Shown: piece by piece, positions 10,408 through 32,000 of the stretch
Layout of the letters: each line of letters opens with the position of its first letter
Numbering within the stretch: position 1 is the first letter of the stretch
NCBI GenBank assembly: GCA_001898405.1
Contig: MKTW01000018.1
Coordinates: 182,432 to 214,431 of the forward strand
DNA from: Sphingobacteriales bacterium 44-61
GTDB taxonomy: Bacteria > Bacteroidota > Bacteroidia > Chitinophagales > Chitinophagaceae
Reading direction: 5' to 3'
DNA length: 32,000 nt
Program-made: the position numbers and the translations under genes
The notes under the pieces: generated by a model
Databases searched by the model: none
What the model was told of the DNA's origin: nothing
The model's input: the letters and a program-made list of their open reading frames with translations, nothing else

Positions 10408-10431
10408 GATAGTAAAGAAAATAAAATTTGC

Positions 10432-10474: not shown

Positions 10475-10486
10475 TAATTATAACTC

Positions 10487-10807
10487 ATGAGACGCGACAT
10501 TTTTCAAGCAATTGCAGACCCCACCCGACGAGCTATCCTTGTCCTCGTCGCCGTGCAGGCAATGACTCCCAATGCCATTGCGGAACATTTTGACATCAGA
10601 AGGCAATCCATATCCAAACACCTGCGCATCCTGTCCGAATGCGACCTCCTGGTTCCAAGACAGGAAGGCAGGGAGATCTTCTATGAACTGAAAATCGATA
10701 AAATGAAAGAGATCGATACCTGGCTCGACCAGTTCCGGAAGATCATGGAAGAAAGTTTCAAACAACTCGACGATGTATTATACACCTTAAAAAATAAGAA
10801 AAAATGA
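10487..10807 (+). CDS. ArsR/SmtB family transcriptional regulator (winged HTH)
   Basis: 106 aa. [18 protein letters not shown]...[43 protein letters not shown] is the canonical ArsR HTH_20 pattern. ATGA overlap with the next gene. Confidence 0.9.
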
Positions 10808-11301
10808 ACTTGCTATTTGATTTTACCGTAGACAAAGCAGCGCAAAAAGTATTCATCACAAGAGAATTCGATGCTGACCTGTCGCTTGTATGGGATGCTT
10901 TTACCAAAGCAGAGATCCTTGACCAATGGGTAGCCCCCAAACCCTGGAAGTCAAAAACGAAATTTATGGACTTCAAGGTTGGGGGACGAAGATTTTATGC
11001 CATGGTAAGCCCCGAAGGATTGGAGCGTTGGGCAATTCAGCAATACACTTCAATTAGCCCAAAAACCAATTTCAAAATGTTTAATGCTTTTGCTGACAAA
11101 GATGAAAACCCTGAATTACCAGGTTCTGATTGGGATTACACTTTTAGCGAACAGAACGGAAAGACAACAGTGCGTATTACTATTTATAATGAATCCCTTG
11201 CCCGTATGGAGAAAATGATTGAAATGGGCTTTAAAGAAGGATTTACTATGAGCATGACCAACCTGGAAAACCTATTGACGACTTTGTCGAAACAGTCCTG
11301 A
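10804..11301 (+). CDS. SRPBCC-superfamily protein (AHSA1 / activator of Hsp90 ATPase homolog-like domain)
   Basis: 165 aa. [31 protein letters not shown]...GGRRFYAM... matches the AHSA1-type SRPBCC pattern. This family is commonly paired with ArsR regulators. Confidence 0.85.
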
Positions 11302-11497
11302 TCGCGATAGCTGACATGATGATAAGGCAAAGTAAGCCCTACCATATCTCGTTGAGAAACAACGTTACTTGTTTTCAATTGAATGACTTATTAATTCCAT
11401 ATACACTTATGGGCTTACGTAATTACTAAACGCTGGCTGGTAATTGCAGGCTGTTATAACAGATTGGTGTAACTTGGTTAACCAATTGCGTAAGTTA

Positions 11498-12754
11498 ATG
11501 CATTACCACAAAAGCTTATTGCAACTGATTTTTATTTGCATGGCAACAGTTGCCAGTGCACAGGTAGATCAACAACGCGCCACGGAATATTTCAAAGAAG
11601 CTCAGGCTCTTTGCGAGCGGGATAATGGCCGTTTATGGGGGATTTCCATCTGTGGGCCAATGGTCATCTTAGACATGCAAACAAAGACGATTGCTACCAG
11701 CAAAACTGCGCCAGATGAAACCAGGCCCCGGCTTCTTGGTCTTGTGAATGCACCTATTCAATGGGGCGGGGAAACATGGGGAGCTTACATCTGGAACGAT
11801 GTAGCCGCCAAATCTCCACGTGACCGAAAAGAACTTTTTCTTCACGAATTATTTCATGGCATTCAACCTCAGCTCAAATTAGGTGCAGCGGCGGGTACAC
11901 CCGAACATCTTGATTTGAAGGAAGGCAGATATTGGTTGAGACTCGAGTGGAAAGCATTGGAGAAGGCACTTCGCAGTTCCGGCAGGCAGCGAAAGCAAGC
12001 TATTTCAGATGCTCTTGCATTCCGGAAAGCCCGGCGACTTCTTTTTCCTGCCAGTGTCGAAGACGAACGAGGACAGGAAATTACCGAAGGACTTGCTGCC
12101 TATACTGCTACAGTGCTTGTAGCGGATTCAGATAGTGATGCTATCGGTAGTGCTCTTGATTTGCTTGTCCATACTGAAAGGATTGCTAAGGATGCCAGCT
12201 TCGTTCGCACATTTGCTTATTTTTCTGGTCCCGCATATGGACTTCTGCTCGATGCAAGTTCTCCCGATTGGAGAAAGCGAATAAAAAATACAGATGATCT
12301 TGCTGTACTCCTGATGCAAGCGTTAAATATTAAACCGGGCCGTAAGGCCAGCATAGCTGCTGCCAGGTATGATGGTGCAGAAATTCTTTTGTCTGAACAG
12401 AAGAGAGAGGAAGATCGCCAGGCTCGCCTCAATGAGTTGCGTAAGACTTTTGTTGAAGGCCCGACGCTTTCGTTTCCTGGCGGCAACCATAGTTATGATA
12501 CCCGGGGAGCTGTTTCGCTCCAGGGAATCGGAACGATATATTTCGGTCCTTTTCGTGCCTCAGGTGCATGGGGAAAGCTGGAAGCGGAGAAGGGTGTGCT
12601 CGTGTCGAGTGATGGCAGTTTTCGTCGTGTTGCAGCACCAATTAAATCCGATGAAACTACTTTTTCGGGAGACGGTTGGAAATTATATTTATCACCTGGG
12701 TGGATTGTGAAAGAAGGTGAAAGAAAGGGAAGCTTTGAGGTAGTGAAGGAGTAA
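11498..12754 (+). CDS. Secreted hypothetical protein with an HExxH zinc-metallopeptidase-like motif
   Basis: The ORF track starts at a TTG at 11444. ATG at 11498 gives MHYHKSLLQLIFICMATVASAQ, a clean signal peptide. LFLHELFHGIQ carries HExxH, and a downstream acidic ligand candidate lies in EITEGLAAYT. I do not recognise the family. Confidence 0.75.
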   Translation: MHYHKSLLQLIFICMATVASAQVDQQRATEYFKEAQALCERDNGRLWGISICGPMVILDMQTKTIATSKTAPDETRPRLLGLVNAPIQWGGETWGAYIWNDVAAKSPRDRKELFLHELFHGIQPQLKLGAAAGTPEHLDLKEGRYWLRLEWKALEKALRSSGRQRKQAISDALAFRKARRLLFPASVEDERGQEITEGLAAYTATVLVADSDSDAIGSALDLLVHTERIAKDASFVRTFAYFSGPAYGLLLDASSPDWRKRIKNTDDLAVLLMQALNIKPGRKASIAAARYDGAEILLSEQKREEDRQARLNELRKTFVEGPTLSFPGGNHSYDTRGAVSLQGIGTIYFGPFRASGAWGKLEAEKGVLVSSDGSFRRVAAPIKSDETTFSGDGWKLYLSPGWIVKEGERKGSFEVVKE

Positions 12755-14448: not shown

Positions 14449-15957
14449 TCAAAATCCCGCATTCCTAACCCTGATCAATTTCCCATTAACCTCATCAGAA
14501 AGTATATACAACTTACCTGCAGGACTCTGAACCACTTTCCGGATCCTTACCCTGTCATCCGCAAAAAGCTCCTCCGCACTTTTTATAGTTTCACCCTCTA
14601 TCACCATACGCCATAAACTACCCCTCGATAACCCGCCCACAAGGAGATTATGATTCCAGGCCGCAAATTCATTACCCGAATAAAAATGCAAACCTGTAGG
14701 AGCTACTGTTTGTAGCCAGGCCCATACAGGATCAGTATAATTATTCTCTGGAATCGGCAAAGGAGCATATTCTGCATAGCGGTATTTCCCTGTCGTCTTT
14801 ATTGGCCAGCCATAATTCGCTTTTGCCTTCAGCACATTGATCTCATCTCCCTGGTGTGTGCCATGTTCACTGAACCATATTTTCCCGGTGGATGTATCAA
14901 GTGTGATACCCTGCGCTGCCCTGATGCCGGTTGCGTACAGGCCCGGAGTCGCCTTTGATCCAAAATCCGGGTTATCATCCGGGATGGTCCCGTCAGGATT
15001 GATACGGTAGACCTTTCCTCTCCTGTCATGAATATCCTGAGCTATCGGAACAATAGGTTGATCTTTTTCTGTGAACAACCGCTCACCGATTGTAAAATAT
15101 AATTTCCCGTCTTTTCCAAACACCATCCCACCGCCATAGTGAAAACGTTCATGTGTATAGGGTTCTGCCACAAAAAGAGTTTTGATCTGCCGCAAAGAAT
15201 TTTTTTCCAATACGGCCCTGATGATCCTGGTGGTTCGCACAGCACCTTTTTCGGCAGCGTATGACAGGTAGATATATTTATTATTACTAAAATCAGGATC
15301 CAGCAATATTTCGAATTTGCCGGTATTATCGCCAAATCCGGTGAGGCTGTCTGCCATATCAGTGGGAAAGCCTTCGATCCTGACCTTTTCCTTCTTCTGT
15401 AAATTTACTTTTACCAGGTCACCTTCTTTCTCTGAGATCAGTGCTTCATCTTCCGTTATAAAAGCGATACTCCAGGGGCGCTTCAATCCTTCCAGGATCG
15501 TTTCTTTTTCCAGCCGTATAGCATTTACATCGAAGGTCCTGTGGGATGTCCGGGTAGATACCTTATCGGCGATCACCCAGCCTTCGTTGGTCTTCATAAG
15601 ATTGAAATAGTCTGTAAAAAGATCCCGTTCCGTGCTGATCTCCACCTTCGCACTCCCCATGCCATTGGTAATATCAAGCGATACGATACGCGCGCTGAGA
15701 TTTTTAGGCCTGGGATGTGGTTTGAAAAAACTCAGATACTCACTTCTGGAATATTGAATGAATTTCCCGTCCCGGTAGTTTTTTAAATGACAGGATGGAT
15801 GCATGGTTTTACCCAGTTTAACGGTATCACCAGTTGCCCAGCCATCAAAATATAGCTGGATCACATTTTCTATCATTTGTCTTTCAGTGGCCGCATTCTG
15901 GGAATAGGCAGGAATAAGAGCAACAGATAAAGCAGTTAGCAGAAGCAATTTTTTCAT
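14449..15957 (-). CDS. Fusion of an NTF2-like (lumazine-binding-like) N-terminal domain with a PQQ-dependent sugar (glucose/sorbosone) dehydrogenase beta-propeller
   Basis: 502 aa with a signal peptide (SVALIPAYSQ). Residues ~25-135 (IENVIQLYFDGWATGDTVKLGKTMHPSCHL...NEGWVIADKV) look like an NTF2/SnoaL-type domain. The rest matches the GSDH family (PWSIAFITEDEALISEKEGDL, HYGGGMVFGKDGKLYFTIGE, GDEINVLKAKANYGWP). Confidence 0.85.
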   Translation of the reverse strand: MKKLLLLTALSVALIPAYSQNAATERQMIENVIQLYFDGWATGDTVKLGKTMHPSCHLKNYRDGKFIQYSRSEYLSFFKPHPRPKNLSARIVSLDITNGMGSAKVEISTERDLFTDYFNLMKTNEGWVIADKVSTRTSHRTFDVNAIRLEKETILEGLKRPWSIAFITEDEALISEKEGDLVKVNLQKKEKVRIEGFPTDMADSLTGFGDNTGKFEILLDPDFSNNKYIYLSYAAEKGAVRTTRIIRAVLEKNSLRQIKTLFVAEPYTHERFHYGGGMVFGKDGKLYFTIGERLFTEKDQPIVPIAQDIHDRRGKVYRINPDGTIPDDNPDFGSKATPGLYATGIRAAQGITLDTSTGKIWFSEHGTHQGDEINVLKAKANYGWPIKTTGKYRYAEYAPLPIPENNYTDPVWAWLQTVAPTGLHFYSGNEFAAWNHNLLVGGLSRGSLWRMVIEGETIKSAEELFADDRVRIRKVVQSPAGKLYILSDEVNGKLIRVRNAGF

Positions 15958-16065: not shown

Positions 16066-17121
16066 TTATAAATCCGGAGTAACTGACTGTTGGTAAGCAC
16101 TGGGTGTAGTGCCTTTGATCTTCTTAAAGGTTGCAAAAAAAGTAGACTTGGAATTGAAACCAACCTCTTGACCAACAGCCTCTATTGTCAGGTTTATACG
16201 TTGCGATAACATGTGACAGGCTTCATTTATCCTGTATTCATTGACAAAAAGTGTAAAATTCTTCTGGATATTATCATTGAGAACCTGCGATAACTGGTGA
16301 TCGGAAATGTTGATCTCCCGGGCAAGATCATTCACTTTCAGATTGGGATTTTTAAAGAGCTCCTTCTCAGCCATACTTTTTTTCAGCCGGCCAATGATCA
16401 ACTCCGCTTCTGCCTGACCAAGTTTTTTGTCAACATATCGCTGGGCAGAAGAAGAGAACAGGTCATTTGCTTTTTTACGATAGAGTAATACAAACACTAC
16501 TGAATAAATGATCAGGGAAAACCAGAGCGCACCGTTGATATAACTACCCTTCGTAATATTCAGGATAGCCCATACATAGCACACCAATAATATGGTCACA
16601 GCTCCACAAATAGCCAATATCCATCTTTCAAAAGGCTTTACAGCTTCCCCGCTGGCTATTTTTTTCAAGGTAGGGATCAATAACAATACAGATAAAGCAA
16701 CATACACACCCCATTGCAGGTAAATAAGTGGTATAATGTATTTTCTCCATAGCGAAGGAAAACGCTCATAGGGATAAATAATACCCACTAACAAAATAAC
16801 GAAAGCCCAAAGAATGAATTGCCAAAGCCATGGCTTTGGCAGCTTCCTGATCTGCCTTGTTTCAGCCCTGACATAGAAATACAAACAGGGACCGATAAAA
16901 AAGCAGGCAGTCAAACCAATCTGCAAGTATGTTTTGAGCAGCTGATAATTAAAAAAATAAGCAACCGATTTTCCGATCCTGATACTCAGGGCAAGCAGTA
17001 AAAAGCCCAGCAGGTAACTGGACAAGTGCTTTTTGGACGTAAAAAAGAAAAAGTAAATACTCAGTATGAGCCCATTGAATACACCCAGGCAACTAAAAAA
17101 GAAGAGGGCTTTACTACTCAT
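16066..17121 (-). CDS. Membrane-anchored AraC family transcriptional regulator (multi-TM N-terminal domain plus C-terminal HTH)
   Basis: 351 aa. About six or seven hydrophobic helices in the first ~215 aa. The C-terminus carries an AraC HTH (VNDLAREINISDHQLSQVLN...TIEAVGQEVGFNSKSTFFATFKKIKGTTPSAY). Confidence 0.85.
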   Translation of the reverse strand: MSSKALFFFSCLGVFNGLILSIYFFFFTSKKHLSSYLLGFLLLALSIRIGKSVAYFFNYQLLKTYLQIGLTACFFIGPCLYFYVRAETRQIRKLPKPWLWQFILWAFVILLVGIIYPYERFPSLWRKYIIPLIYLQWGVYVALSVLLLIPTLKKIASGEAVKPFERWILAICGAVTILLVCYVWAILNITKGSYINGALWFSLIIYSVVFVLLYRKKANDLFSSSAQRYVDKKLGQAEAELIIGRLKKSMAEKELFKNPNLKVNDLAREINISDHQLSQVLNDNIQKNFTLFVNEYRINEACHMLSQRINLTIEAVGQEVGFNSKSTFFATFKKIKGTTPSAYQQSVTPDL

Positions 17122-17266: not shown

Positions 17267-18796
17267 TTAAATATTAAACTCGATCCCCTGCGCCAATGGC
17301 AAATCCTTCCCGTAGTTTATCGTATTCGTTTGCCTGCGCATATACACTTTCCATGCATCTGAACCACTTTCCCTGCCGCCGCCTGTTTCTTTTTCCCCAC
17401 CAAAAGCACCGCCGATCTCTGCTCCGGAAGTGCCGATATTGACATTCGCTATGCCACAGTCTGAGCCTGCCGCGGACAGGAATAGTTCTGCTTCACGGAG
17501 GTTTAAGGTCATGATAGCCGAGGACAAGCCTTGCGGCACATCATTCTGCATAGCAATGGCTTCCTCTATATTCCTGTATTTCATCACATATAAAATGGGA
17601 GCAAAAGTTTCTGCCTGCACAATAGCAAAATGATTTTCTACTGCGGCGATACAGGGTTTTACATAACAACCCGAAGCGTATTCTTTTCCTTCTACTATAC
17701 CACCCTCCACTATAAATTCACCGCCTTCCTTTTTTATTGCATCCAGGGCTTTCATATAGCTGGCAACTGCATCTTTATCAATCAAAGGACCAACATGATT
17801 TTTCGCTTCTAATGGATTCCCGATCTTCAATTGCGCATACGCCCCTTTCAACTTTTCGGTGAAACTGTCAAAAACGCTTTCATGAATGATCAGCCTCCTG
17901 GTTGAAGTACACCGCTGACCGGCCGTGCCAACTGCGCCAAATACAGCACCGACAAGTGTCATATCCAGGTCTGCATCTTTGGAAACGATGATGGCATTGT
18001 TTCCACCTAATTCCAACAGGCATTTGCCCAGTCTTGCTGCAACAGTTATGTTAACAGCTTTCCCCATTCTTGTTGAGCCCGTTGCTGAAACCAACGCTAC
18101 GCGTGTATCCTGCGCAATCCATTCTCCTAAATTCCTGTCGCCCTGTACGAGGTTGCAGAGCCCTTCCGGCAAATTATTCTTTTTAAAAACTTCAGCAATG
18201 ATCTGAAAACAAGCTTGTGCAGATAATGGTGTTTTTTCAGATGGCTTCCATACACAAACATCGCCGCAAACCAATGCCAGCATGGCGTTCCAGCTCCATA
18301 CCGCTACAGGAAAATTGAACGCTGAAATAATCCCTACAATTCCTAAAGGGTGCCACTGTTCGTACATTCTGTGATTGGACCTTTCTGAATGCATGGTTAG
18401 TCCATGCAGTTGTCGTGACAAGCCTACCGCGAAATCACAGATATCAATCATTTCCTGTACTTCTCCCCTGCCTTCCTGCAGGCTTTTTCCCATTTCGTAA
18501 GAAACGAGTTTCCCCAGGTCATCTTTATATACCCGCAAGGCTTCGCCTATCTGACGAACGATCTCACCACGCTTGGGTGCCGGAACAGTTCGCCAATACA
18601 GGAAGGCTGTTTGTGCCTTGGAAATGATTTTATCGTATTCTTCTTTTGTAACGGTTTGCGTGTCCGCTATTCTATTACCATCAACAGGCGACCAGGAAGT
18701 AATGGTTTTTCCCGAGGAAGGAATAAAGTTTATGCCATCAGAGGCGCCGGTATTTTGTTCATTAATGGAAAATGTTCTTAAAATAGCTGCTATCAT
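17267..18796 (-). CDS. ALDH7-type aldehyde dehydrogenase (alpha-aminoadipic semialdehyde / piperideine-6-carboxylate dehydrogenase-like)
   Basis: The ORF-track start (18955) overlaps the upstream gene. ATG at 18794-18796 (MIAAILRTFSINEQNTGA...) gives 509 aa. Diagnostic ALDH7-like block EGRGEVQEMIDICDFAVGLSRQLHG. Catalytic regions LELGGNNAIIV and GTAGQRCTSTRRL. Confidence 0.9.
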   Translation of the reverse strand: MIAAILRTFSINEQNTGASDGINFIPSSGKTITSWSPVDGNRIADTQTVTKEEYDKIISKAQTAFLYWRTVPAPKRGEIVRQIGEALRVYKDDLGKLVSYEMGKSLQEGRGEVQEMIDICDFAVGLSRQLHGLTMHSERSNHRMYEQWHPLGIVGIISAFNFPVAVWSWNAMLALVCGDVCVWKPSEKTPLSAQACFQIIAEVFKKNNLPEGLCNLVQGDRNLGEWIAQDTRVALVSATGSTRMGKAVNITVAARLGKCLLELGGNNAIIVSKDADLDMTLVGAVFGAVGTAGQRCTSTRRLIIHESVFDSFTEKLKGAYAQLKIGNPLEAKNHVGPLIDKDAVASYMKALDAIKKEGGEFIVEGGIVEGKEYASGCYVKPCIAAVENHFAIVQAETFAPILYVMKYRNIEEAIAMQNDVPQGLSSAIMTLNLREAELFLSAAGSDCGIANVNIGTSGAEIGGAFGGEKETGGGRESGSDAWKVYMRRQTNTINYGKDLPLAQGIEFNI

Positions 18797-18812: not shown

Positions 18813-19700
18813 CTAGTTGCCTTTTGTTTGCGAGGTATAAGTGCTTTCAAAAATCTTGTCTGCATTGCCTGTTTCAAAACCATCACGGCGATGTTCCCTA
18901 CGTATCTGCTCCTTGGGCAGATGGGCAAACTGGTCCAGTACTTTTCTTTCTGCAAATTCTACATATGAACCTGCAATCATTTTCTTTTTACCATCTGCAA
19001 AAGTGGCTTCGATCATTTCGGCAACAGTAGAACTTTGCAGCAGCTTTCCGTCGGGGCTTTTTTTGATCTCGCTGCCTGCTGTATTTAACTTAAAGCCATT
19101 ACGTTTCAGGAATACATTAAATTCTTCCAGTGTGTTGAAGCCTTCAGGAAGATTATGAACGCTGACAGTAAAATGGTTGAGATAATAATGGTTTAGGATC
19201 ACCCAGGCTGCATATTCAGTTTCTGCAAGCAAGGCATCATAATCTTCCAAAGTAGGGGTACGCCAAAGACCGCTATGCAAATATTTGTCTACGGCAACGG
19301 CATCATCCAGGTTGATCCGGGAAACGGGATCAACTTTCACTTCATCAGTATAGCTGCGGATGATCTTTTGTATGCTTTCGCTCAGATCACCTACCCGTAG
19401 CTCGCTTATAAAGATGCGTGGGTAACGGTTTTCGGGTGGGGCATACCAATAAGCGTCCAGTTTCTTTTCTTTAAAAAAAAGATGGCTCTTCTTCTGATAC
19501 CCGTAATGGAGAAACACTTTTTCCAAAGATTGAATCCCCAGTTTTTCCACACCCATCGTACGGAAGGCGATATGATCATTCTCAATATCACCGGCATTTT
19601 CAATAATGCCTTCTCTTATCATAGCCTCGATGATCGCGCTTACATCCGGCACACGCTCTTTGTAGCGCTGCATCAGCCCATCTAATATATTATCCAACAT
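18813..19700 (-). CDS. DUF1338-family metalloenzyme, putative 2-oxoadipate dioxygenase/decarboxylase (HglS-like)
   Basis: 295 aa. Metal-ligand-type blocks as I recall them for DUF1338: ENDHIAFRT, YYLNHFTVSV, GSYVEFAER. C-terminal RRDGFETGNADKIFEST. Family call from motif memory; function inferred from the characterised HglS. Confidence 0.7.
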   Translation of the reverse strand: MLDNILDGLMQRYKERVPDVSAIIEAMIREGIIENAGDIENDHIAFRTMGVEKLGIQSLEKVFLHYGYQKKSHLFFKEKKLDAYWYAPPENRYPRIFISELRVGDLSESIQKIIRSYTDEVKVDPVSRINLDDAVAVDKYLHSGLWRTPTLEDYDALLAETEYAAWVILNHYYLNHFTVSVHNLPEGFNTLEEFNVFLKRNGFKLNTAGSEIKKSPDGKLLQSSTVAEMIEATFADGKKKMIAGSYVEFAERKVLDQFAHLPKEQIRREHRRDGFETGNADKIFESTYTSQTKGN

Positions 19701-19706
19701 AATTGA

Positions 19707-22016
19707 TCAATTTATATGATTTTGACTCATCACTTCATTCAGGGCCACCACCATGTCCTTTGCATTCTGTTCATTAAAAACCAATGGTGGTTTTATTTTC
19801 AAAACATTGTACAAAGGCCCGTCTGTACTGAGCAGAAAACCCCGTTCTTTCATTTTTTCCACCACAAGATTAATTTCCGCCACAGCAGGTTCCTTTGTAA
19901 CCCGGCTTTTTACAAATTCAGCACCCACAAAAAGCCCATGGCCACGTACATCGCCAATAATGCTATACTTATCCATTAGTTTCTTCAGGCCTTCCAGCAA
20001 AACCGTTCCAACCTGCCGGGCATGGCTTTGCATGGCTTCATCTTCTATTACCTGCAACACCGTATTGCCCGTAACCATTGACACCGGGTTCCCTCCATAC
20101 GTATTAAAATACTCCATGCCATTATTGAATGCATTCGCTATCTCATCAGTTACCACTACGGCAGCTAAGGGATGACCGTTGCCAATGGGCTTACCCAATA
20201 CTACAATATCCGGCTCCACACCCTGCAATTCAAAACCCCAGAATGCCTCGCCGACACGTCCAAACCCTACCTGCACTTCATCTGCAATACATAAGCCACC
20301 GAAAGCACGAACATGCTCATACACCTTTTTCAGGTAACCATCCGGTAAAGGGATCTGCCCGCCTACGCCTAATAAAGTTTCGCAGATAAACGCTGCAGCG
20401 CCTTTGTTGTTTTGTTTCAGTCCATTTAAGATATCCAGTACGCTTTCGGCATATTTTTCACCAGCATCTGTATCACCGTACTGATAGCCTCCACGATACA
20501 TATCCGGTGACACGGCCTTATGAATATAAGGCTGCTGCCCTCCGCCACCTTTACCGTCAAACTTGTACGGGCTCATTTCAATAGCTAATGTGGACGTGCC
20601 GTGGTACGCATGGTCCAATACGATCACATCCTTTTTACCAGTAAAATGCCGCGCCATTCTTATTGCCAGATCATTGGCTTCACTTCCTGAATTAGTAAAA
20701 TAACAAACCGAAAGCTTTGCAGGAAGCTTTGCCGTGAGTGCTTTTGCATAATCCATCATTGCATCGTTCAGGTAACGCGTATTTGTATTGAGGGTGGCTA
20801 TCTGCTTTTGCATGGCTTTTACCACTACCGGGTGGCAATGTCCTACATGACTTACGTTGTTGACACAATCAATAAAAGTGTTACCCTTATCGTCGTATAG
20901 GTACTGGAATGCTCCTTTCAGGATTTTCAAGGGCTTTTTATAACTGATGCTGAGATTACGTCCAACATGCTCCTTTCTTTCAGATAATAATGATGCATAA
21001 TCATCTTCCGCCTGGATGAGTGAATGAAAGCCGCAGGCTTTTCTGAAACTGTCGGAAGCTTTCACCGGGTTGGTTTGCAATAACTGAAACAACAGCTTCC
21101 AGGCAGGCTGCTCCGTCAGGAAATGATGCTCATTATCACTGTTATGGGATGCTTTTTCTGCTGATTGTGTTACACTGATGCAAAGTCTTGCAGCAATCAG
21201 GTAATATAAAATATCCGTTTCCTGTACTGTTAAAGGATATTGCTGGTGATAGGATTTGACAATATGCGACGCTACAGAAATGGGATCATCTGTGTGTAGC
21301 ATAGCGTAGGTACAGGCTACAGCCAGGTTATTGATCAATGCAGACCATACCATATCGCCAAAATCGATCAGTCCGCTTACCTTTCCGTTTTGTACTAATA
21401 CATTATAGTCATTCGCATCATTATGAATACAGGCTTTTCGCAATGATGAAAGAAGGGGTACTACTTCTGTCTGGAACTGCAGCAGGAAGTACGCAGCCAC
21501 TCTTCTTTTCTCATGATCATGGATATGATGCAAATCTTTTTCGGCGTCAGGTGCACGGCTGATATCCCATTCATAAGAACGCTCTACAGCTTCATGATAC
21601 AGTCCCTTCAGTGCTTTGTCCATTGAACCCAGGAATGTACCCAGGCTTTCATACAATGCGGCAGTTTTTTCTTTTTCTTCCACCCAAAAATTTCCTTCCA
21701 GGAAACTCAGTATTCTCACATAGTACATTTCGCCTCCCTGGTTACAAAATGAGACGACTGCACCTTCCTTATTAAACACATATTCCTGAAAGAATGGTTT
21801 CACCAGCGTTTTTGCCAGATGCTGTGTTACCGCTATCTGCGCATTAATGAATGCCAGATTGATATTACCGGTCGCTGCCTTAAAAATGTACTTCTTCCCG
21901 TCAGTCGCACGCAATAAAAAATTCTGCTCTTCATAGCCATTCAGCGTGGTGGCTACTGCATCTATGTTATAATACGTTTTGGCAATTTGCTGTACTGATT
22001 CCTGATGAAGCGGCAT
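19707..22016 (-). CDS. Bifunctional fusion: APH-fold kinase (hydroxylysine-kinase-like) plus class-III PLP enzyme of the AGXT2L phospho-lyase type (5-phosphohydroxylysine phospho-lyase-like)
   Basis: 769 aa with no signal peptide. The N-terminal ~330 aa carry kinase motifs CIHNDANDYNVLV (HxDxxxxN) and GLIDFGD. The C-terminal ~430 aa carry HVGHCHPVVVKA, SGSEANDLAIRMAR, IADEVQVGFGRVGEAFWGFE and VLGKPIGNGHPLAAVV (PLP lysine). This closely follows the AGXT2L1/2 pattern. Confidence 0.85.
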   Translation of the reverse strand: MPLHQESVQQIAKTYYNIDAVATTLNGYEEQNFLLRATDGKKYIFKAATGNINLAFINAQIAVTQHLAKTLVKPFFQEYVFNKEGAVVSFCNQGGEMYYVRILSFLEGNFWVEEKEKTAALYESLGTFLGSMDKALKGLYHEAVERSYEWDISRAPDAEKDLHHIHDHEKRRVAAYFLLQFQTEVVPLLSSLRKACIHNDANDYNVLVQNGKVSGLIDFGDMVWSALINNLAVACTYAMLHTDDPISVASHIVKSYHQQYPLTVQETDILYYLIAARLCISVTQSAEKASHNSDNEHHFLTEQPAWKLLFQLLQTNPVKASDSFRKACGFHSLIQAEDDYASLLSERKEHVGRNLSISYKKPLKILKGAFQYLYDDKGNTFIDCVNNVSHVGHCHPVVVKAMQKQIATLNTNTRYLNDAMMDYAKALTAKLPAKLSVCYFTNSGSEANDLAIRMARHFTGKKDVIVLDHAYHGTSTLAIEMSPYKFDGKGGGGQQPYIHKAVSPDMYRGGYQYGDTDAGEKYAESVLDILNGLKQNNKGAAAFICETLLGVGGQIPLPDGYLKKVYEHVRAFGGLCIADEVQVGFGRVGEAFWGFELQGVEPDIVVLGKPIGNGHPLAAVVVTDEIANAFNNGMEYFNTYGGNPVSMVTGNTVLQVIEDEAMQSHARQVGTVLLEGLKKLMDKYSIIGDVRGHGLFVGAEFVKSRVTKEPAVAEINLVVEKMKERGFLLSTDGPLYNVLKIKPPLVFNEQNAKDMVVALNEVMSQNHIN

Positions 22017-22019
22017 AAA

Positions 22020-27136
<5,117 letters not shown>

Positions 27137-27288: not shown

Positions 27289-28818
27289 TTAATGTACCAA
27301 CGGATTATTAAGTGTTTCCTTCAATGGAAGTGGGTAGTAAACTTTGTCTGCACTGAAACTTCTACCAGCTGCCTGCATGTTTTGTGTTAAGAGCCCCCAT
27401 CTTCTCAAGTCGTAGAAGCGGCTGCTTTCCAGTGTAAATTCCATTACACGTTCGTGCATGATGGCATTAAATACATCCTGCTTGCTGCTGATGTTCAAAG
27501 CAGGCATATTGCCTCTTTTATTCCTCAAATCGTTAATGATAGGCACAGCGTCACCCGATTTACCACTTTCATTCAGGGCTTCAGCATACAGCAACAATAC
27601 ATCGGCATAGCGCATCAATGGCACATTAAGGGCATTGGAGCGGCCTATGCGGTCTGGCGTTGGAGGTATCCATTTCCTGAAGGCGATGGTATTGCTGCCA
27701 TTACCAAACACATCGTCATACGTATCTCCATATACCTGGGGATTGTTGGCATTGTTAAAGTAGCTGTCTTCGAAATAAACTGTACCGTAGATCCTGGGAT
27801 CGTACATTCCGCCGGTAGCGACCTTACCTTCTTTTTTCATTTCAGTAAGCAGGCGCTGCGTACCATAGATCTCTCCATAGCCACCCAGCTCTGCAGCAGC
27901 CACCCAGTCGGCCAGGTAAGACCTGTAGTTAGCCCCGTTAGAAGCATCCGCGGTTTGTTGCAATTCAAATACAGACTCCACACCGTTTTTAGTAGTGCCG
28001 TTGAACATGGCAAGAAAATCAGGGTCTATCTGGTACTGATTTGAATTGATCACATTTTTCAAACTGTTGACTGCATTTGTGTAATAAGCAGCTGCATTTG
28101 TTTGATCTTCTGCTGCACGGTACAAATTCACTTTTCCAATATATGCCTGTGCCGCGCCTTTGGTAATTCTGCCGGCTTCAGCTGCTGGCCGTTCGCTTTT
28201 CAAGGGCAGATCTGTTTCTGCGGCAGCAAGGTCGGCCAGGATCATATCATAAGCATCTTTTCTTTCAGAAAGGCCTTTGGTAAGATCGGCTTCTGATACA
28301 GGCACTTTATCGCGCAGGATTATCTTTTCAAAATTGGTCAACAGTTTGAAATGATAATATGCACGCAGGAATTTTGCTTCAGCAATAATTTGCTTTTTGC
28401 TGGCATCATCAATTCCACCGGCAGGGATTTTTTCGATACCTTCCAGTACCTGGTTGGAAAAGTTTAAGCCTTTGTAATTATCCCTCCATAAAAGATCGAT
28501 GGCATAGTTGCCGGACGTGAAAGCGAAATTATAATGATCAAGCCACCAGGAATAGTTGTACGCATCAGCTCCCGGTACAACATAATCTTCCCTGTAAAAT
28601 TCACGAACCGATCTTGCTTCTACATAGTTGTCCCAGCCTACAAAACTTTCCAGTTGTGAATAGGCAGCGGAAAGGCCGGACAACGCTTTATCTTTTGATG
28701 TCCAGAAATTATCTGTGGTCAATTGGTCCGGCGCCAATTGGTTAAGATTGTCTTTACTGCATGACCACAAAGACGTTGCCACTGCAAAAGCCAACACCGG
28801 AATTATGCTCTTTTTCAT
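27289..28818 (-). CDS. SusD/RagB family nutrient-binding outer membrane lipoprotein
   Basis: 509 aa. Lipoprotein signal (ATSLWSCSKDN). TPR-like helical body. C-terminal SusD hallmark HERVMEFTLESSRFYDLRRWG. Directly downstream of a SusC gene. Confidence 0.92.
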   Translation of the reverse strand: MKKSIIPVLAFAVATSLWSCSKDNLNQLAPDQLTTDNFWTSKDKALSGLSAAYSQLESFVGWDNYVEARSVREFYREDYVVPGADAYNYSWWLDHYNFAFTSGNYAIDLLWRDNYKGLNFSNQVLEGIEKIPAGGIDDASKKQIIAEAKFLRAYYHFKLLTNFEKIILRDKVPVSEADLTKGLSERKDAYDMILADLAAAETDLPLKSERPAAEAGRITKGAAQAYIGKVNLYRAAEDQTNAAAYYTNAVNSLKNVINSNQYQIDPDFLAMFNGTTKNGVESVFELQQTADASNGANYRSYLADWVAAAELGGYGEIYGTQRLLTEMKKEGKVATGGMYDPRIYGTVYFEDSYFNNANNPQVYGDTYDDVFGNGSNTIAFRKWIPPTPDRIGRSNALNVPLMRYADVLLLYAEALNESGKSGDAVPIINDLRNKRGNMPALNISSKQDVFNAIMHERVMEFTLESSRFYDLRRWGLLTQNMQAAGRSFSADKVYYPLPLKETLNNPLVH

Positions 28819-28877: not shown

Positions 28878-31800
28878 TTACAAACCGATCTGAAGGCCAA
28901 CCAACCATCTTTTATTTTGCGGATACAGTGCACGGTCCACCCCTGTATTAAGCGGGTTGAACGTACCAACTTCAGGATCCAGTCCGCTGTATTTGGTAAT
29001 AGTGAACAGGTTTTGAGCAGCTACATAAAAGCGCACCCTGTTCAGTTTGGCAAAATTGGTAGCAGAGGCTGGAAGTGTGTAGCCCAGTTGCAGCAACTTC
29101 ATTCTTAAATAACCGCCATTTTCCAGGAAGCGGGTTGATTCGCGGTTGTTACCATTAGGATCAGCCAGTATTGCACGGGGCATATCGGTATTGGTATTTT
29201 GCGGAGTCCAGGCATTTAAAGTGGATGTAAGGAAATTACGTCCGGCATCCATGCCTTCCAGTTCAAAGCGGTAACCGTTGTATATTTTGTTGCCACTTAC
29301 ACCCTGGAAGAATGCAGTGAAATCAAAATTTTTATAATTGATTGACACGTTCAATCCATATTCCAGTTTAGGGAAACCAGAGCCTTTATAGGTTTTATCA
29401 TTCTCATCAATCACACCGTCTCCGTTGGAGTCTACAAACCTGATATCGCCGGCTTTTGCATCAGGCTGCAATGGATCGCCGTCTTTATTTACATAAGCAG
29501 CAGCTTCTGCATCAGATTGGAAAATGCCATCAGCGGTGTACAGGTAAAAAGCACCTATTTCAGTTCCTTCTTTGGTTTGAGTAGGGATATGGTCTGTTCC
29601 GAATTTCAATCCGGTGCCATACAGGGTCTGATCAGGTTGTGCCAGTTTAACTACTTCGTTTTTGATATGAGTAACAGAGCCGGTAATGCCTATATTCCAG
29701 TCATTCCTTGTGTAGTTGTACGTCAGTTCCAGTTCAATACCTTTATTGGAGATAGTGCCCACGTTTAAGATCGGATCATTCACCCCTGCAGATGGAGGGA
29801 CTTCTTTAGTGATCAATAAGCCCTTGGTCTTGTTATTAAAATAGTTCAAAGAACCGGTAAGCTTATTACGGAATAAAGCAAAGTCAGCACCGATATTGGT
29901 TGATTTGTTGGTTTCCCATTTCAGATCACGGTTTTGCAGGTTATAGCTTGCAGAACCGGGCCAGGGTGTAGCTCCGGACCCTTGCACATAACCACCTGAC
30001 CAGGTATTTCTGGTGGTGATCAATGCCTGGTGATCATAATAACCTAAAGCACCTTCATTACCCAACTCCCCATAGCTTGCCCTGAGTTTTAATACATTCA
30101 GCCAGTCGATATTCTCCATGAAAGATTCCCTGTGCATATTCCAGCCAAGAGAAACAGAAGGGAATGTTCCGAACTGATTGTTCTGTCCGAAAATGGAAGA
30201 ACCGTCACGCCTTACACTTACCTGTACCAGGTATTTTCCGGCATAGTCATAGTTAATTCTGCCGAAAGTGGAAAGACGTACATATTTATTATTGGAGCCG
30301 GCTGCACCAAATGTGCCACCCAGGCCTGCATTGATCGTATTAAAATCAGGATTGGAAAAACCGCCTGCCACTTCTTTTTCCACGATAGAACCATTTACCA
30401 CAGATCTTACAACCGTTTTACCATCTGCTGTTACGCTCAGGTATTCGTTTGTTTTTTGCTGTGCAGAATAGCCGGCCAGCACTTTGATGCTGTGATCACC
30501 TTTTTTCCAGTCATAATTGAGCAAATGCTCCATTTGCTGCTCTTTATAATTGGAACGGCTATTATAAACATAAGGATAGGAAACAGCAGGATCATTGGCA
30601 TTGGCCCTGAATGGCGGGTGGTGCGAATAGTCAAAGCTGTTGGCACTGATATAGTTCAACTGGGCTGTGTAGCTAAAACCTTTGAATAATTGCAACCTGA
30701 TCTTCAGGTTATCCGCCAGATATTGCGTTTTGGTATAGCCATCTACATAATGGGCATAACCAACAGGGTTTTGAAACCTGGGTAATCCGTTTGCCGTTAA
30801 AGCATATCCATATTGTTCGTTGGGGTCGAATACTGGCAGCAGCGGAGATTGGAAATACGCATCCCGGAGGTCAAACTTGTATGCTTCGGATTTGGTAGAG
30901 GAGTAAAGGAGGTTGTTTTCTACCGTCAATATGCCTTTTTTGATTTCATTGGTAGCACGGATCGTTTTTTTGTTGAAGTTGGAACCTATCAATGTTCCTT
31001 TTTCATCCGTAAGGTCACCACTGATGCCATATTTCACATTGTCACTGCCGCCCCTGATACCTACATTATAGTTTTGGGCAATACCGGTCTGGTTAACCTG
31101 GTCCTGCCAGTTTGTGTTAACACCTGTATTATTGGTAATGTAAGCAGGAAGCTGTGTACTGCCGGCATTTTCATACATCATACGGTGAACTTTTTTATAG
31201 CCTTCAGCATCCAGCAAATCATATTTGCTGGTCGGCTTTGCCTGGCCATAGTAGCTGCTGAAGTCGATAACAGGTTCGCCTTTTTTACCTTTCCTGGTAG
31301 TGATGATGACCACACCGTTAGCACTATTGGAACCGTAAATAGATGCAGCAGCACCGTCCTTCAACACTTCTATCGATTCTATATCATTGTTACTCAAATA
31401 ATAAGGATCACCAACCACTCCATCAATAATATACAATGGCTGGTGGCCGCCAAACGTACTGATACCCCTCAAACGCACGTCAGACATTTGCCCGGGGTTG
31501 CCGCCAGGACTGGTAATAGACAAACCTGCTACCCTTCCCTGCAAAGCATTAATGGGGTTATTGGTAGCCATTTTGCTAACAACATCCCCTTTCACGGAAG
31601 AAACAGCACTGGTAAGGTTGCCCCGCTTTTGGGTACCGTAACCCACCACCACTACCTCATCCATTTGTTTAGTGGTCGACTCCAGGGTGATCTGCACCTC
31701 CGTTTTTCCTTCGGTTGCCACTTCTTTGGTGGTATATCCCACTGCTGTTACAACCAATACGGGATTGGGAGTGGAGGTATTAATGGTAAAACGTCCTCCA

Positions 31801-32000
31801 TCATTGGCAACAGCGGAGCCCGAACCATTTTTGACGGTAATGGTAGCTCCGGCAACCGGAGTACCGGAGGCGTCCAGAACAACACCCGACACAGAAGCAG
31901 TCTGGGCATATCCTGTATTATATAAAAGGGAAAACAAAAAATAGAGAAGACAAAAGGCTAATGGCCTTTTGCGCCAGGCAATCAATCGAGTCATAAGCAT
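28878..32000 (-). CDS. SusC/RagA family TonB-dependent outer membrane transporter
   Basis: 1040 aa. Signal peptide; carboxypeptidase-D-regulatory-like domain ([20 protein letters not shown]); plug signature ([54 protein letters not shown]); long beta-barrel. No N-terminal STN signalling domain is visible. The ATG sits on the last 3 nt of the window, so an upstream start cannot be excluded. Confidence 0.9.
   Translation of the reverse strand: [1040 protein letters not shown]

What the first reader, a model, noticed from the sequence alone, without database searches (positions are those of the whole stretch)
19707..22016. Single-polypeptide kinase plus phospho-lyase (two consecutive pathway steps fused)
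Seen: one 769-aa frame joins an APH-fold kinase (CIHNDANDYNVLV, LIDFGD) to an AGXT2L-type PLP enzyme (IADEVQVGFGRVG, GKPIGNGHP). Established: in mammals these are separate proteins (HYKK and PHYKPL). The original identification of those enzymes used bacterial gene association or fusion as a clue, as I recall. Inference: fusion would channel the phospho-intermediate. The same architecture could instead act on phosphoethanolamine, since AGXT2L1-type chemistry yields acetaldehyde. The adjacent ALDH7-type and HglS-like genes argue for the hydroxylysine to aminoadipate route.
Basis: partly seen in the sequence, partly recalled or inferred. Interest (0 to 1): 0.65.

Follow-up and report, generated by a model that had tools for sequence, protein, structure and literature searches.

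The report
Fused hydroxylysine kinase and phospho-lyase
This gene encodes a common and already recognised bacterial fusion of an amino-alcohol kinase with a phospho-lyase, and its conserved neighbours (a sugar-uptake pair, an alpha-glucosidase and a beta-galactosidase) suggest it lets soil and freshwater bacteria feed on the sugar-decorated hydroxylysine of collagen.

Summary
The only correction is that the 769-aa frame (19707-22016) lies on the minus strand.

- **Kinase half.** Residues 1-335 form an APH-fold small-molecule kinase with an intact catalytic loop. The AF2 model has pLDDT 90.9, and its best fold match is homoserine kinase II.
- **Lyase half.** Residues 336-769 belong to the AGXT2L phospho-lyase clade. 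They are 53% identical to human ETNPPL (489 bits), while the best non-lyase scores about 180 bits.
- **Novelty of the fusion.** The fusion itself is not new. NCBIfam has models for it, one database entry already calls it hydroxylysine kinase/phospho-lyase, and it occurs in thousands of protein clusters across phyla.
- The gene is the fifth of seven tightly packed co-directional genes: SusC, SusD, GH2 beta-galactosidase, GH63 YgjK-type alpha-glucosidase, the fusion, an HglS-like gene and ALDH7, followed by a terminator.
  - In 65 related loci, 52 carry a beta-galactosidase (GH2 or the unrelated GH42, never both) and 47 also carry GH63.
  - Among 31 relatives, GH63 occurs in exactly the six genomes that have the close fusion.

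I read the enzyme as 5-hydroxylysine kinase/5-phosphohydroxylysine phospho-lyase working on hydroxylysine freed from collagen-type Glc-Gal-Hyl. First-stage notes on this same window had already raised that locus idea.

No enzyme assay exists for any bacterial member. PHYKPL and HYKK could not be compared.

The parts
21012..22016 (-). Kinase half of the fusion (residues 1-335): APH/eukaryotic-like-kinase fold. K46 lies in strand 3, the catalytic loop is H198-N-D200-x4-N205, and D218 of IDFGD is the metal-binding residue.
   Evidence: Pfam APH 1e-17. All these residues are invariant in alignments A1 and A2. AF2 model pLDDT 90.9, pTM 0.90. Foldseek top hits are 2ppq homoserine kinase II (TM 0.72/0.78), amicoumacin kinase, APH(9), NahK and 6ef6 aminopropanol kinase. 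The nearest NCBIfam enzyme families are homoserine kinase PRK05231 and thrB_alt, both weak.
19707..21011 (-). Phospho-lyase half of the fusion (residues 336-769 plus stop): class-III, fold-type-I PLP enzyme of the AGXT2L (ETNPPL/PHYKPL) clade. The Schiff-base lysine is K609 and the pyridine-N aspartate is D579.
   Evidence: Pfam Aminotran_3 6.6e-75. 6tor ETNPPL 2e-145, 5g4i phospholyase 1e-92, next best dialkylglycine decarboxylase 5e-52. 53% identity over 424 columns to ETNPPL, with K609 aligned to chain residue 278.
22020..24002 (-). GH63 YgjK-type alpha-glucosidase with an N-terminal signal peptide. Its stop lies 3 nt before the fusion start. Proposed to remove the alpha-1,2-glucose from Glc-Gal-Hyl.
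   Evidence: Pfam MGH1-like_GH and YgjK_N. E. coli YgjK 3d3i 1e-99, with the WESGMDN and ENYHPMTG blocks aligned to the YgjK catalytic regions. Present in 47 of 65 related loci. Found in exactly the six of 31 relatives that carry the close fusion.
24005..27136 (-). GH2 LacZ-type beta-galactosidase with a signal peptide. Proposed to release hydroxylysine from Gal-beta-O-Hyl.
   Evidence: All five LacZ domains in Pfam; NCBIfam beta_gal_Bga2A 1006 bits, above cutoff 999. 6sd0 1.6e-234. Replaced at the same position by a GH42 beta-galactosidase in Flavobacterium.
27289..28818 (-). SusD-family outer-membrane lipoprotein
   Evidence: Pfam SusD_RagB and SusD-like_3. Conserved upstream of the enzymes in 42 of 65 loci.
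28878..32000 (-). SusC-type TonB-dependent transporter. Its ATG falls on the last three bases of the window.
   Evidence: Pfam CarbopepD_reg_2, Plug and TonB_dep_Rec_b-barrel. The start was confirmed in L091.
18813..19700 (-). Short (295 aa) hydroxyglutarate-synthase-like DUF1338 protein (2-oxoadipate to 2-hydroxyglutarate). It starts 6 nt after the fusion stop.
   Evidence: Pfam HGLS 2.6e-64. 6w1k (rice FLO7, an assayed HglS) 3.6e-63. The NDHIAFRT motif keeps the His and the substrate-binding Arg four residues later.
17267..18796 (-). ALDH7-type 2-aminoadipate-semialdehyde / piperideine-6-carboxylate dehydrogenase. This is a dedicated second copy in the genome.
   Evidence: NCBIfam NF050084 832 bits, above cutoff 730. 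The likely ATG at 18796 was read. A 73% identical paralogue sits in a housekeeping context on contig C2.
17212..17235 (-). Intrinsic terminator (10-bp stem with 7 GC pairs, followed by a T-run) that closes the seven-gene unit
   Evidence: It is the strongest minus-strand terminator-like site between 16000 and 32000. Sequence read.

Best explanation
The gene encodes a cytoplasmic bifunctional enzyme. The N-terminal APH-fold kinase phosphorylates the 5-hydroxyl of free 5-hydroxy-L-lysine. The C-terminal PLP enzyme then eliminates phosphate and ammonia from 5-phosphohydroxylysine to give 2-aminoadipate semialdehyde. This is the chemistry of animal HYKK followed by PHYKPL. The gene is the fifth in a seven-gene transcription unit that I read as a utilisation locus for collagen-type glycosylated hydroxylysine (Glc-alpha1,2-Gal-beta-O-Hyl). 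The proposed route is as follows. SusC and SusD import the glyco-amino acid or a short glycopeptide. The periplasmic GH63 removes glucose and the periplasmic GH2 removes galactose. Hydroxylysine enters the cell through a transporter that has not been identified. The fusion converts it to the semialdehyde, and the operon's own ALDH7 oxidises that to 2-aminoadipate. After an unlinked transamination, the HglS-like enzyme makes 2-hydroxyglutarate, and a YdiJ-type dehydrogenase encoded elsewhere in this genome gives 2-oxoglutarate. Shown here: domain identities, catalytic residues, clade membership of the lyase half, operon layout, and conservation and co-occurrence of the neighbours. Inferred: every substrate, the cellular compartments, and any channelling between the two halves.
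For: Identity of the two halves:
- Pfam hits, conserved residues and the fold of the kinase half.
- The lyase half scores 489 bits with ETNPPL and 315 bits with the Arthrobacter phospholyase, against 181 bits or less for anything else in the PDB. It is 53% identical to ETNPPL.
- One source already names a 65%-identical protein 'hydroxylysine kinase / 5-phosphonooxy-L-lysine phospho-lyase'.

Operon layout:
- Gaps between genes are 59, 152, 2, 3, 6 and 16 nt. One strong terminator follows the ALDH.

Product handling:
- The ALDH passes the equivalog cutoff for P6C dehydrogenase. It is an extra copy beside a housekeeping one.
- The HglS-like protein scores 3.6e-63 with the assayed rice enzyme and keeps the His/Arg motif.

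Glycoside link:
- Of 65 loci with full flanks, 52 have a same-strand beta-galactosidase: GH2 in 23 and the unrelated GH42 in 29, never both. All 47 loci with GH63 also have a beta-galactosidase. 42 have SusC/SusD.
- Gene order differs between Chitinophagaceae/Pedobacter and Flavobacterium. It differs again in three-domain relatives of Flammeovirgaceae and Lewinella, where the fusion is followed by GH2 and GH63.
- Flavobacterium loci add a YdiJ-like gene directly downstream of the fusion; its best NCBIfam hit is D-2-hydroxyglutarate dehydrogenase. This genome has a 59%-identical copy elsewhere.
- Among 31 relatives, the GH63 orthologue is found in exactly the six genomes with the close fusion. 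It is single-copy in all six and directly adjacent in five. Within the window's genus, 3 of 7 genomes have both and 4 have neither.
- GH2 and GH63 start with signal-peptide-like sequences, and the fusion does not.
- The literature says the natural substrate of YgjK is thought to be an alpha-glucoside other than nigerose (PMC9061262). My own memory is that Miyazaki et al. 2013 identified Glc-alpha1,2-Gal. Glc-alpha1,2-Gal-Hyl is the collagen disaccharide unit (PMC8626586).
Against: - No activity has been measured for any bacterial member in the literature I could search.
- The only solved close relative, ETNPPL, acts on phosphoethanolamine, not phosphohydroxylysine.
- HYKK and PHYKPL sequences could not be obtained, so orthology to them is untested.
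- The locus has no inner-membrane amino-acid transporter, no peptidase and no 2-aminoadipate transaminase. No gene in the genome passes the NF049976 cutoff.
- Nine of 65 loci carry the fusion with none of the partner genes, among them Flavobacterium psychrophilum.
- HglS-like genes also occur in relatives without the fusion and are missing from some that have it.
- Three-domain relatives in Rhizobium, Pseudomonas and Actinomycetota show no such neighbours, so the substrate assignment may not hold for the whole family.
- The sampled genomes are related to one another, so the counts overstate independence.
Confidence: 0.68

Rival explanations
1. The fusion is an ethanolamine kinase / phosphoethanolamine phospho-lyase (ETNPPL-type) that yields acetaldehyde, ammonia and phosphate. 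It would be used for phospholipid head-group catabolism.
For: The closest solved structure is human ETNPPL (2e-145, 53% identity). The Arthrobacter homologue 5g4i is also annotated simply as a phospholyase.
Against: No PHYKPL structure exists in the PDB, so the ETNPPL top hit says nothing about specificity. The neighbours are a P6C/aminoadipate-semialdehyde dehydrogenase and an HglS. There is no acetaldehyde dehydrogenase and no eut genes. The conserved, co-occurring beta-galactosidase and GH63 have no role in ethanolamine use.
Confidence: 0.07
2. The fusion acts on a different hydroxylated amine. Candidates are 1-amino-2-propanol (as in the mycobacterial microcompartment kinase/phospholyase pair), another hydroxy-amino acid, or a hydroxylysine isomer from a non-collagen source. 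The adjoining glycosidases would then serve a different Glc-Gal glycoside.
For: Aminopropanol kinase 6ef6 is among the top structural matches of the kinase half. Three-domain relatives in Proteobacteria and Actinomycetota lack the hydroxylysine-type context. This shows that the family need not have a single substrate.
Against: The dedicated ALDH7 copy, HglS and (in Flavobacterium) YdiJ all point to a C6 alpha-amino-dicarboxylate route. An alpha-glucosidase of the YgjK type paired with a beta-galactosidase matches the one well-known Glc-alpha1,2-Gal-beta-O-aminoacid, which is collagen Hyl.
Confidence: 0.15
3. The C-terminal half is a genuine aminotransferase, and the protein is a kinase-transaminase with no lyase chemistry.
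For: The Pfam family is Aminotran_3. Most public names call the protein an 'aminotransferase class III-fold enzyme' or '4-aminobutyrate aminotransferase-like'.
Against: It scores 489 and 315 bits with the two solved phospho-lyases, against 181 bits or less with every transaminase, racemase or decarboxylase in the PDB. No NCBIfam transaminase model comes close to its cutoff.
Confidence: 0.03
4. The position of the fusion next to a PUL is an accident of gene order. The PUL would degrade an ordinary Glc/Gal-containing glycan, and the fusion, HglS and ALDH7 would form an independent lysine/hydroxylysine module.
For: Nine of 65 loci have the fusion alone, and five have GH2 without GH63. HglS is not phyletically tied to the fusion. 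No transcript data could be obtained.
Against: Intergenic gaps are 2-6 nt around the fusion. The link persists through at least three different gene orders and through replacement of GH2 by GH42. GH63 and the fusion co-occur perfectly among 31 relatives, and both are gained or lost together within one genus.
Confidence: 0.07

Closest known systems
Animal hydroxylysine kinase (HYKK/AGPHD1, EC 2.7.1.81) plus 5-phosphohydroxy-L-lysine phospho-lyase (PHYKPL/AGXT2L2, EC 4.2.3.134)
   Same: The same two folds (APH-type kinase and class-III PLP enzyme) and, as proposed here, the same two consecutive reactions giving 2-aminoadipate semialdehyde. That product is then handled by an ALDH7-type enzyme in both cases.
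   Different: In animals these are two separate proteins, whereas here they form one polypeptide with no linker. Here the gene is co-operonic with uptake proteins and glycosidases.
Human ethanolamine-phosphate phospho-lyase ETNPPL/AGXT2L1 (PDB 6tor)
   Same: 53% identity over the whole PLP domain, with the Schiff-base lysine and surrounding motifs aligned.
   Different: ETNPPL is stand-alone and acts on phosphoethanolamine to give acetaldehyde. The gene context of the window protein points to a C6 amino-acid substrate.
Bacterial bi- and tri-domain APH-(M23)-aminotransferase-III proteins (NCBIfam PRK06148 / PRK06149)
   Same: The window protein matches both models end to end over its two domains (963 and 615 bits). 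It belongs to the same very large group of fusions.
   Different: It lacks the central Peptidase_M23-like domain of about 250 aa, so it falls below both curated cutoffs. Those families are annotated only as 'hypothetical protein' or 'aminotransferase', with no assigned substrate.
Aminopropanol kinase / aminopropanol-phosphate phospho-lyase pair of mycobacterial microcompartments (kinase PDB 6ef6), and the Arthrobacter phospholyase 5g4i
   Same: The same logic, in which an APH-fold kinase activates an amino alcohol for PLP-dependent elimination of phosphate. Both are structural or sequence relatives.
   Different: They are separate genes that act on a small amino alcohol and give propionaldehyde. 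They are not linked to glycosidases or aminoadipate enzymes.
Animal protein-glucosylgalactosylhydroxylysine glucosidase (PGGHG, GH65, EC 3.2.1.107)
   Same: It would catalyse the same first step that I propose for the neighbouring GH63: removal of alpha-1,2-glucose from Glc-Gal-Hyl (PMC8626586).
   Different: It belongs to a different glycoside hydrolase family and clan (GH65 against GH63). The bacterial activity is only inferred.

Membership tests
APH-fold (eukaryotic-like) small-molecule kinases, Pfam PF01636 | Profile match above the curated cutoff | tested here: met
   65.1 bits against cutoff 23.2, res 26-257
APH-fold (eukaryotic-like) small-molecule kinases, Pfam PF01636 | Catalytic loop HxDxxxxN, metal-binding Asp of a DFG-like motif, and the strand-3 lysine | tested here: met
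   H198, D200, N205, D218 (IDFGD) and K46 are invariant in 9 and 20 aligned relatives. K46 lies in strand E42-49 of the model.
APH-fold (eukaryotic-like) small-molecule kinases, Pfam PF01636 | Bilobal kinase fold | tested here: met
   AF2 pLDDT 90.9. Foldseek probability 1.00 to 2ppq, 6sui, 3i1a, 4ocv and 6ef6, with TM up to 0.78.
Hydroxylysine kinase (HYKK, EC 2.7.1.81) | Orthology to animal HYKK by sequence or tree | not tested
   No HYKK sequence or structure was available; a PDB search with the kinase half returned nothing. The only indirect evidence is one source's name for a 65%-identical protein.
Hydroxylysine kinase (HYKK, EC 2.7.1.81) | Nucleotide-dependent phosphorylation of 5-hydroxy-L-lysine | not testable with these tools
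   This needs an enzyme assay.
AGXT2L-type PLP phospho-lyases (ETNPPL / PHYKPL) | Class-III fold-type-I PLP enzyme with a Schiff-base lysine and a pyridine-N aspartate | tested here: met
   PF00202 253 bits. K609 aligns with ETNPPL chain residue 278 and D579 lies in ADEVQ; both are invariant.
AGXT2L-type PLP phospho-lyases (ETNPPL / PHYKPL) | Closer to known phospho-lyases than to any transaminase, racemase or decarboxylase | tested here: met
   489 bits (6tor) and 315 bits (5g4i), against 181 bits or less for all other PDB chains.
AGXT2L-type PLP phospho-lyases (ETNPPL / PHYKPL) | 1,2-elimination of phosphate with ammonia release and no amino acceptor; specificity for 5-phosphohydroxylysine rather than phosphoethanolamine | not testable with these tools
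   Only gene context bears on this.
NCBIfam PRK06148 / PRK06149 (APH-M23-aminotransferase fusions) | Whole-protein score above the curated cutoff (three-domain architecture) | tested here: not met
   963 bits against cutoff 1128, and 615 bits against cutoff 973. The protein matches model positions 13-343 and 580-1011 only and lacks the M23 segment. It is a two-domain relative, not a member by the curated rule.
Bacteroidota polysaccharide-utilisation locus (PUL) | Adjacent susC/susD pair co-directional with glycoside hydrolases | tested here: met
   SusC, SusD, GH2 and GH63 lie on one strand with gaps of 59, 152 and 2 nt. The arrangement is conserved in 42 of 65 loci.
Hydroxyglutarate synthase (HglS, DUF1338) for the neighbouring gene | Metal-binding His/His/Glu triad plus the 2-oxoadipate-binding Arg four residues after the first His | tested here: inconclusive
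   The first His and the Arg are present (NDHIAFRT). The LNH..H and YVEFAER blocks align with rice FLO7. I did not map which of these are the second His and the Glu ligands described in PMC7286885.

The most novel reading that the evidence does not exclude
The fusion is the cytoplasmic core of a bacterial pathway that no paper in the held library describes. The pathway would be a SusC/SusD-based locus, spread through Chitinophagaceae, Sphingobacteriaceae, Flavobacteriaceae and some Cytophagia/Saprospiria, that mineralises the collagen-specific glyco-amino acid Glc-Gal-hydroxylysine. If true, it would give YgjK-type GH63 enzymes their long-sought natural substrate. It would also give the orphan 'galactosyl-hydroxylysine beta-galactosidase' activity two non-homologous enzymes (GH2 and GH42).
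Probability: 0.55. Interest if true: 0.7.

Novelty: new member of a known kind. Interest (0 to 1): 0.5.

Why it matters
The fusion itself teaches little that is new. It belongs to the class of bacterial proteins that, as I recall, first pointed to the function of the animal enzymes, and databases already model it.

Its value lies in the context. No bacterial member has been assayed. This locus offers a concrete, cheap test of substrate: hydroxylysine against ethanolamine.

It also offers a test of a wider idea. Glc-Gal-Hyl and Gal-Hyl are collagen breakdown products, and (by first-stage note e1-2453291, unchecked) mammals excrete Gal-Hyl largely undegraded. Common soil and freshwater Bacteroidota may recycle these compounds through a dedicated uptake, deglycosylation and catabolism operon.

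If confirmed, this would supply a physiological substrate for YgjK-type GH63 glucosidases and a first enzyme for Gal-Hyl cleavage. It would also give a complete route from a collagen modification to 2-oxoglutarate.

Tried and rejected
- **Original paper not available.** The original JBC paper (Veiga-da-Cunha 2012) is not held by DOI or PMC id. Its content is cited from memory only.
- **No bacterial pathway paper found.** Literature searches for a bacterial hydroxylysine pathway or a Glc-Gal-Hyl PUL found nothing relevant.
- **No tree against HYKK, PHYKPL and ETNPPL.** The search with the lyase half alone returned only bacterial proteins. The 50%-representative search gave 150 unnamed hits, nearly all fusions. 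Cluster look-up named none as a vertebrate enzyme. I also expect the vertebrate paralogues to be a late duplication, in which case a tree would not settle specificity; that is inference.
- **Kinase half by sequence.** A PDB sequence search with the kinase half found nothing, so I used a fold search instead.
- **Tool failure.** The first genome search failed because the machine was busy and was repeated.
- **Missing transaminase.** The search for a 2-aminoadipate transaminase (NF049976) gave only sub-threshold class-III hits.
- **Promoter scan.** The sigma-70 promoter scan was no better than shuffles (41 sites against 36.5 expected) and does not suit Bacteroidota promoters in any case.
- **Exceptions and distant relatives.** Loci without the glycosidases, and the proteobacterial and actinobacterial three-domain loci, showed no shared alternative neighbours.
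- **AraC regulator rejected as a conserved part.** A homologue lies next to the locus only in the closest relative.
Full report
**1. Observation**

The window holds one ATG-started open frame of 769 codons at 19707..22016. It is on the minus strand, and the plus strand of the same interval is full of stops.

Pfam places an APH phosphotransferase domain at residues 26-257 (E 1e-17). It places a class-III aminotransferase domain at 363-762 (E 6.6e-75).

**2. The kinase half**

Residues 1-335 carry the catalytic loop H198-N-D200-x4-N205, the metal-binding D218 in IDFGD, and K46. All are invariant in alignments of 9 and of 20 relatives.

A sequence search of the PDB found nothing. An AlphaFold2 model built on 20 locus translations is confident (pLDDT 90.9, pTM 0.90). 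Its best structural neighbours are:

- Agrobacterium homoserine kinase type II, 2ppq (TM 0.72/0.78);
- amicoumacin kinase;
- APH(9);
- N-acetylhexosamine kinase;
- the microcompartment aminopropanol kinase 6ef6.

The only enzyme-level NCBIfam hits are weak ones to type II homoserine kinase. The half is therefore a real small-molecule kinase. It most resembles enzymes that phosphorylate a side-chain or amino-alcohol hydroxyl.

The region between the two Pfam domains (about residues 258-340) is well conserved and folds as the helical C-lobe of the kinase. There is no flexible linker.

**3. The lyase half**

| PDB comparison | E-value | Bits |
|---|---|---|
| Human ETNPPL (6tor) | 2e-145 | 489 |
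| Arthrobacter aurescens phospholyase (5g4i) | 1e-92 | 315 |
| Next best: dialkylglycine decarboxylase | about 5e-52 | about 181 |
| Transaminases and racemases | 3e-51 or worse | 178 or less |

BLASTP gives 53% identity over 424 columns to ETNPPL. K609 (VLGKPIGNGHP) aligns with ETNPPL chain residue 278, and D579 sits in the ADEVQ motif.

That criterion is not met.

Whether the half is nearer PHYKPL or ETNPPL could not be tested. No PHYKPL structure exists in the PDB copy, and no named vertebrate sequence came back from the homologue searches.

**4. The fusion is common and already recognised**

- The protein matches NCBIfam PRK06148 and PRK06149 over both halves. It misses their cutoffs because it lacks a central segment of about 250 aa. 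In relatives that segment is a Peptidase_M23 domain.
- More than 7,300 of the 8,000 scored 90%-identity clusters match at E 1e-10 or better. The top 120 all carry both Pfam domains. One Flavobacterium cutihirudinis entry is already named 'hydroxylysine kinase / 5-phosphonooxy-L-lysine phospho-lyase'.
- Of the 150 best 50%-identity representatives, nearly all are fusions of about 770 or about 1000 aa.
- Named relatives include Kiloniella and the alga Vitrella, and Rhizobium, Pseudomonas, Actinomycetota and Planctomycetota.
- Split adjacent genes also occur (L097).
- Within Bacteroidota, 23 of 301 sampled genomes have a match. Among 31 close relatives, 8 do; one of those (G011) matches only the lyase half.

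As I remember the abstract of Veiga-da-Cunha et al. 2012, such bi- and tri-functional bacterial proteins were the clue to the animal enzymes. The paper is not held, so this is memory and not a tool result. In the library I could search, no bacterial member has been assayed.

**5. The surroundings in the window**

The fusion is the fifth of seven co-directional genes:

| Gene | Coordinates |
|---|---|
| SusC | 28878-32000 |
| SusD | 27289-28818 |
| LacZ-type GH2 | 24005-27136 |
| YgjK-type GH63 | 22020-24002 |
| Fusion | 19707-22016 |
| HglS-like (295 aa) | 18813-19700 |
| ALDH7-type dehydrogenase | 17267-18796 |

- The gaps between genes are 59, 152, 2, 3, 6 and 16 nt. The strongest minus-strand terminator of the region (17235-17212) follows the last gene.
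- The ALDH exceeds the equivalog cutoff for L-piperidine-6-carboxylate dehydrogenase.
- The HglS-like protein scores 3.6e-63 with 6w1k, the rice FLO7 hydroxyglutarate synthase, whose activity and structure are described in PMC7286885. It keeps the His and the substrate-binding Arg four residues later.
- The GH63 scores 1e-99 with E. coli YgjK, and the blocks around the catalytic acid and base are conserved (residues as given in PMC13671375).
- GH2 and GH63 begin with signal-peptide-like sequences. The fusion, HglS and ALDH do not.

**6. Conservation across genomes**

I fetched 80 loci with 10-kb flanks from named species and mapped the window's neighbours onto them. The table covers the 65 loci with full flanks.

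| Feature on the same strand as the fusion | Loci (of 65) |
|---|---|
| Any beta-galactosidase | 52 |
| GH2 beta-galactosidase | 23 |
| GH42 beta-galactosidase | 29 |
| GH63 (always together with a beta-galactosidase) | 47 |
| SusC/SusD | 42 |
| At least one of HglS, ALDH7 or YdiJ-like | 38 |
| None of these | 9 |

- GH2 and GH42 never occur together. The GH42 assignment rests on PF02449 (E 1e-112).
- GH42 in Flavobacterium occupies the slot that GH2 has in Chitinophagaceae and Pedobacter. A different family does the same job there. This argues that beta-galactosidase activity itself is under selection next to the fusion.
- Gene order differs by group. Chitinophagaceae and Pedobacter have SusC-SusD-GH2-GH63-fusion-(HglS-ALDH7). 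Flavobacterium has (HglS)-ALDH7-SusC-SusD-GH63-GH42-fusion-YdiJ.
- The YdiJ-like gene's best NCBIfam hit is D-2-hydroxyglutarate dehydrogenase, below its cutoff. The window's genome encodes a 59%-identical copy on another contig.
- Further arrangements occur in three-domain relatives. A Flammeovirgaceae MAG has fusion-GH2-GH63, Lewinella has fusion..GH63-GH2, and a third genome has fusion-GH2. Their glycosidases are only 36-43% identical to the window's.

**7. Phyletic pattern**

- Among the 31 relatives, the GH63 orthologue (E 1e-60 or better) is found in exactly six genomes. These are the same six that carry the close two-domain fusion. It is a single copy in every case, directly next to the fusion in five and about 1.1 kb away in G018.
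- In the window's own genus, three genomes have both genes and four have neither.
- HglS-like genes are distributed differently: 7 genomes, overlapping only partly with the fusion.
- The genome has a second ALDH7 paralogue (73% identical) among housekeeping genes.
- The glycosidases are therefore the tightest partners of the fusion. The operon ALDH7 is a dedicated extra copy. HglS is shared with general lysine catabolism.
- These genomes are related to one another, so the counts are descriptive and not statistical.

**8. Mechanism proposed**

1. SusC and SusD import Glc-alpha1,2-Gal-beta-O-hydroxylysine, or short glycopeptides that carry it.
2. The periplasmic GH63 removes glucose, and GH2 (or GH42 in other taxa) removes galactose.
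3. Free hydroxylysine enters the cell through a transporter that has not been identified.
4. The kinase half phosphorylates its 5-hydroxyl. The PLP half eliminates phosphate and ammonia to give 2-aminoadipate semialdehyde.
5. ALDH7 gives 2-aminoadipate. An unlinked transaminase gives 2-oxoadipate.
6. HglS gives 2-hydroxyglutarate, and a YdiJ-type enzyme gives 2-oxoglutarate.

Supporting literature: Glc-alpha1,2-Gal-Hyl is the collagen disaccharide unit (PMC8626586). [quoted passage not shown] My memory of its reference 34 (Miyazaki 2013) is that the product bound was Glc-alpha1,2-Gal.

What is shown here: domain identities, catalytic residues, clade placement, operon layout, conservation and co-occurrence. 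Everything about substrates, compartments and channelling is inference.

**9. Limits**

- The locus has no transporter, no peptidase and no 2-aminoadipate transaminase. No gene in the genome passes NF049976.
- Nine loci, including F. psychrophilum, have the fusion alone.
- Three-domain relatives in Rhizobium, Pseudomonas and Actinomycetota show no informative neighbours. The hydroxylysine assignment should not be extended to the whole family.

**10. Relation to earlier notes**

Those notes were unchecked.

**11. Verdict**

The finding is real and correctly interpreted. The fused architecture is a known and common kind, so this protein is a new member and not a new thing. It lacks the M23 domain of the curated NCBIfam families.

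Interest is moderate. The interest comes from the conserved glycosidase and SusC/SusD context, which makes the substrate question and a possible collagen-glycan salvage pathway directly testable.

Noticed in passing
L022:7788-9923 and L020:7804-9966 (Flavobacterium loci): In Flavobacterium a GH42 beta-galactosidase sits between GH63 and the fusion, where Chitinophagaceae have a GH2. The two families are mutually exclusive across 52 loci.
   Followed up: yes
L022:12384-15335; G000:C12:364050-366950: A 983-aa FAD-oxidase/4Fe-4S protein directly follows the fusion in 23 of 65 loci. Its best NCBIfam hit is D-2-hydroxyglutarate dehydrogenase YdiJ, below the cutoff. The window's genome has a 59%-identical copy on another contig.
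   Followed up: partly
L099:8487-11513 (= L101), L093, L104: Three-domain APH + Peptidase_M23 + aminotransferase-III relatives in Flammeovirgaceae, Lewinella and another Bacteroidota genome are followed by GH2 and/or GH63 in a different gene order. The role of the M23-like domain is unknown.
   Followed up: partly
G000:C2:210418-211944 (L100:7419-8948): A second ALDH7-type gene, 73% identical to the operon copy, lies among panB, panC, ppk, ppx and an OmpA-like gene.
   Followed up: yes
window 16066-17121 (-): An AraC-family regulator with a long hydrophobic N-terminal region lies just after the operon terminator. A homologue sits next to the locus only in the closest relative (L009), so it is not a conserved part of the system.
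   Followed up: partly
L091:634-2322 (-) and L091:3309-6305 (+), i.e. just beyond window base 32000: Upstream of susC lies a 562-aa TPR protein on the same strand. Further on, on the opposite strand, lies a 998-aa hybrid sensor (7TMR-DISM, HisKA, HATPase, receiver, AraC HTH). Either could regulate the locus.
   Followed up: no
L072 (Flavobacterium psychrophilum), fusion at 10001-12304: The fish pathogen F. psychrophilum carries the fusion without any glycosidase, SusC/SusD, ALDH7 or HglS neighbour. It lies between a DUF7935 gene and dnaK.
   Followed up: partly
L097:8978-11292 (G155): In one high-GC Bacteroidota genome the kinase (338 aa) and the lyase (432 aa) are separate adjacent genes. A DAO-type FAD oxidoreductase lies upstream.
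   Followed up: no
P0291 (Vitrella brassicaformis, 1227 aa): A eukaryotic alga encodes a long protein that contains the same lyase domain (51% identity). UniRef labels it an aminoglycoside-phosphotransferase-domain protein, so the fusion also exists outside bacteria.
   Followed up: no
window 14449-15957 (-): This secreted glucose/sorbosone dehydrogenase propeller has an N-terminal lumazine-binding-like (PF12893) domain, which is an unusual combination.
   Followed up: no
window 11444-12754 (+): This 436-aa ORF has no Pfam or NCBIfam match at all.
   Followed up: no
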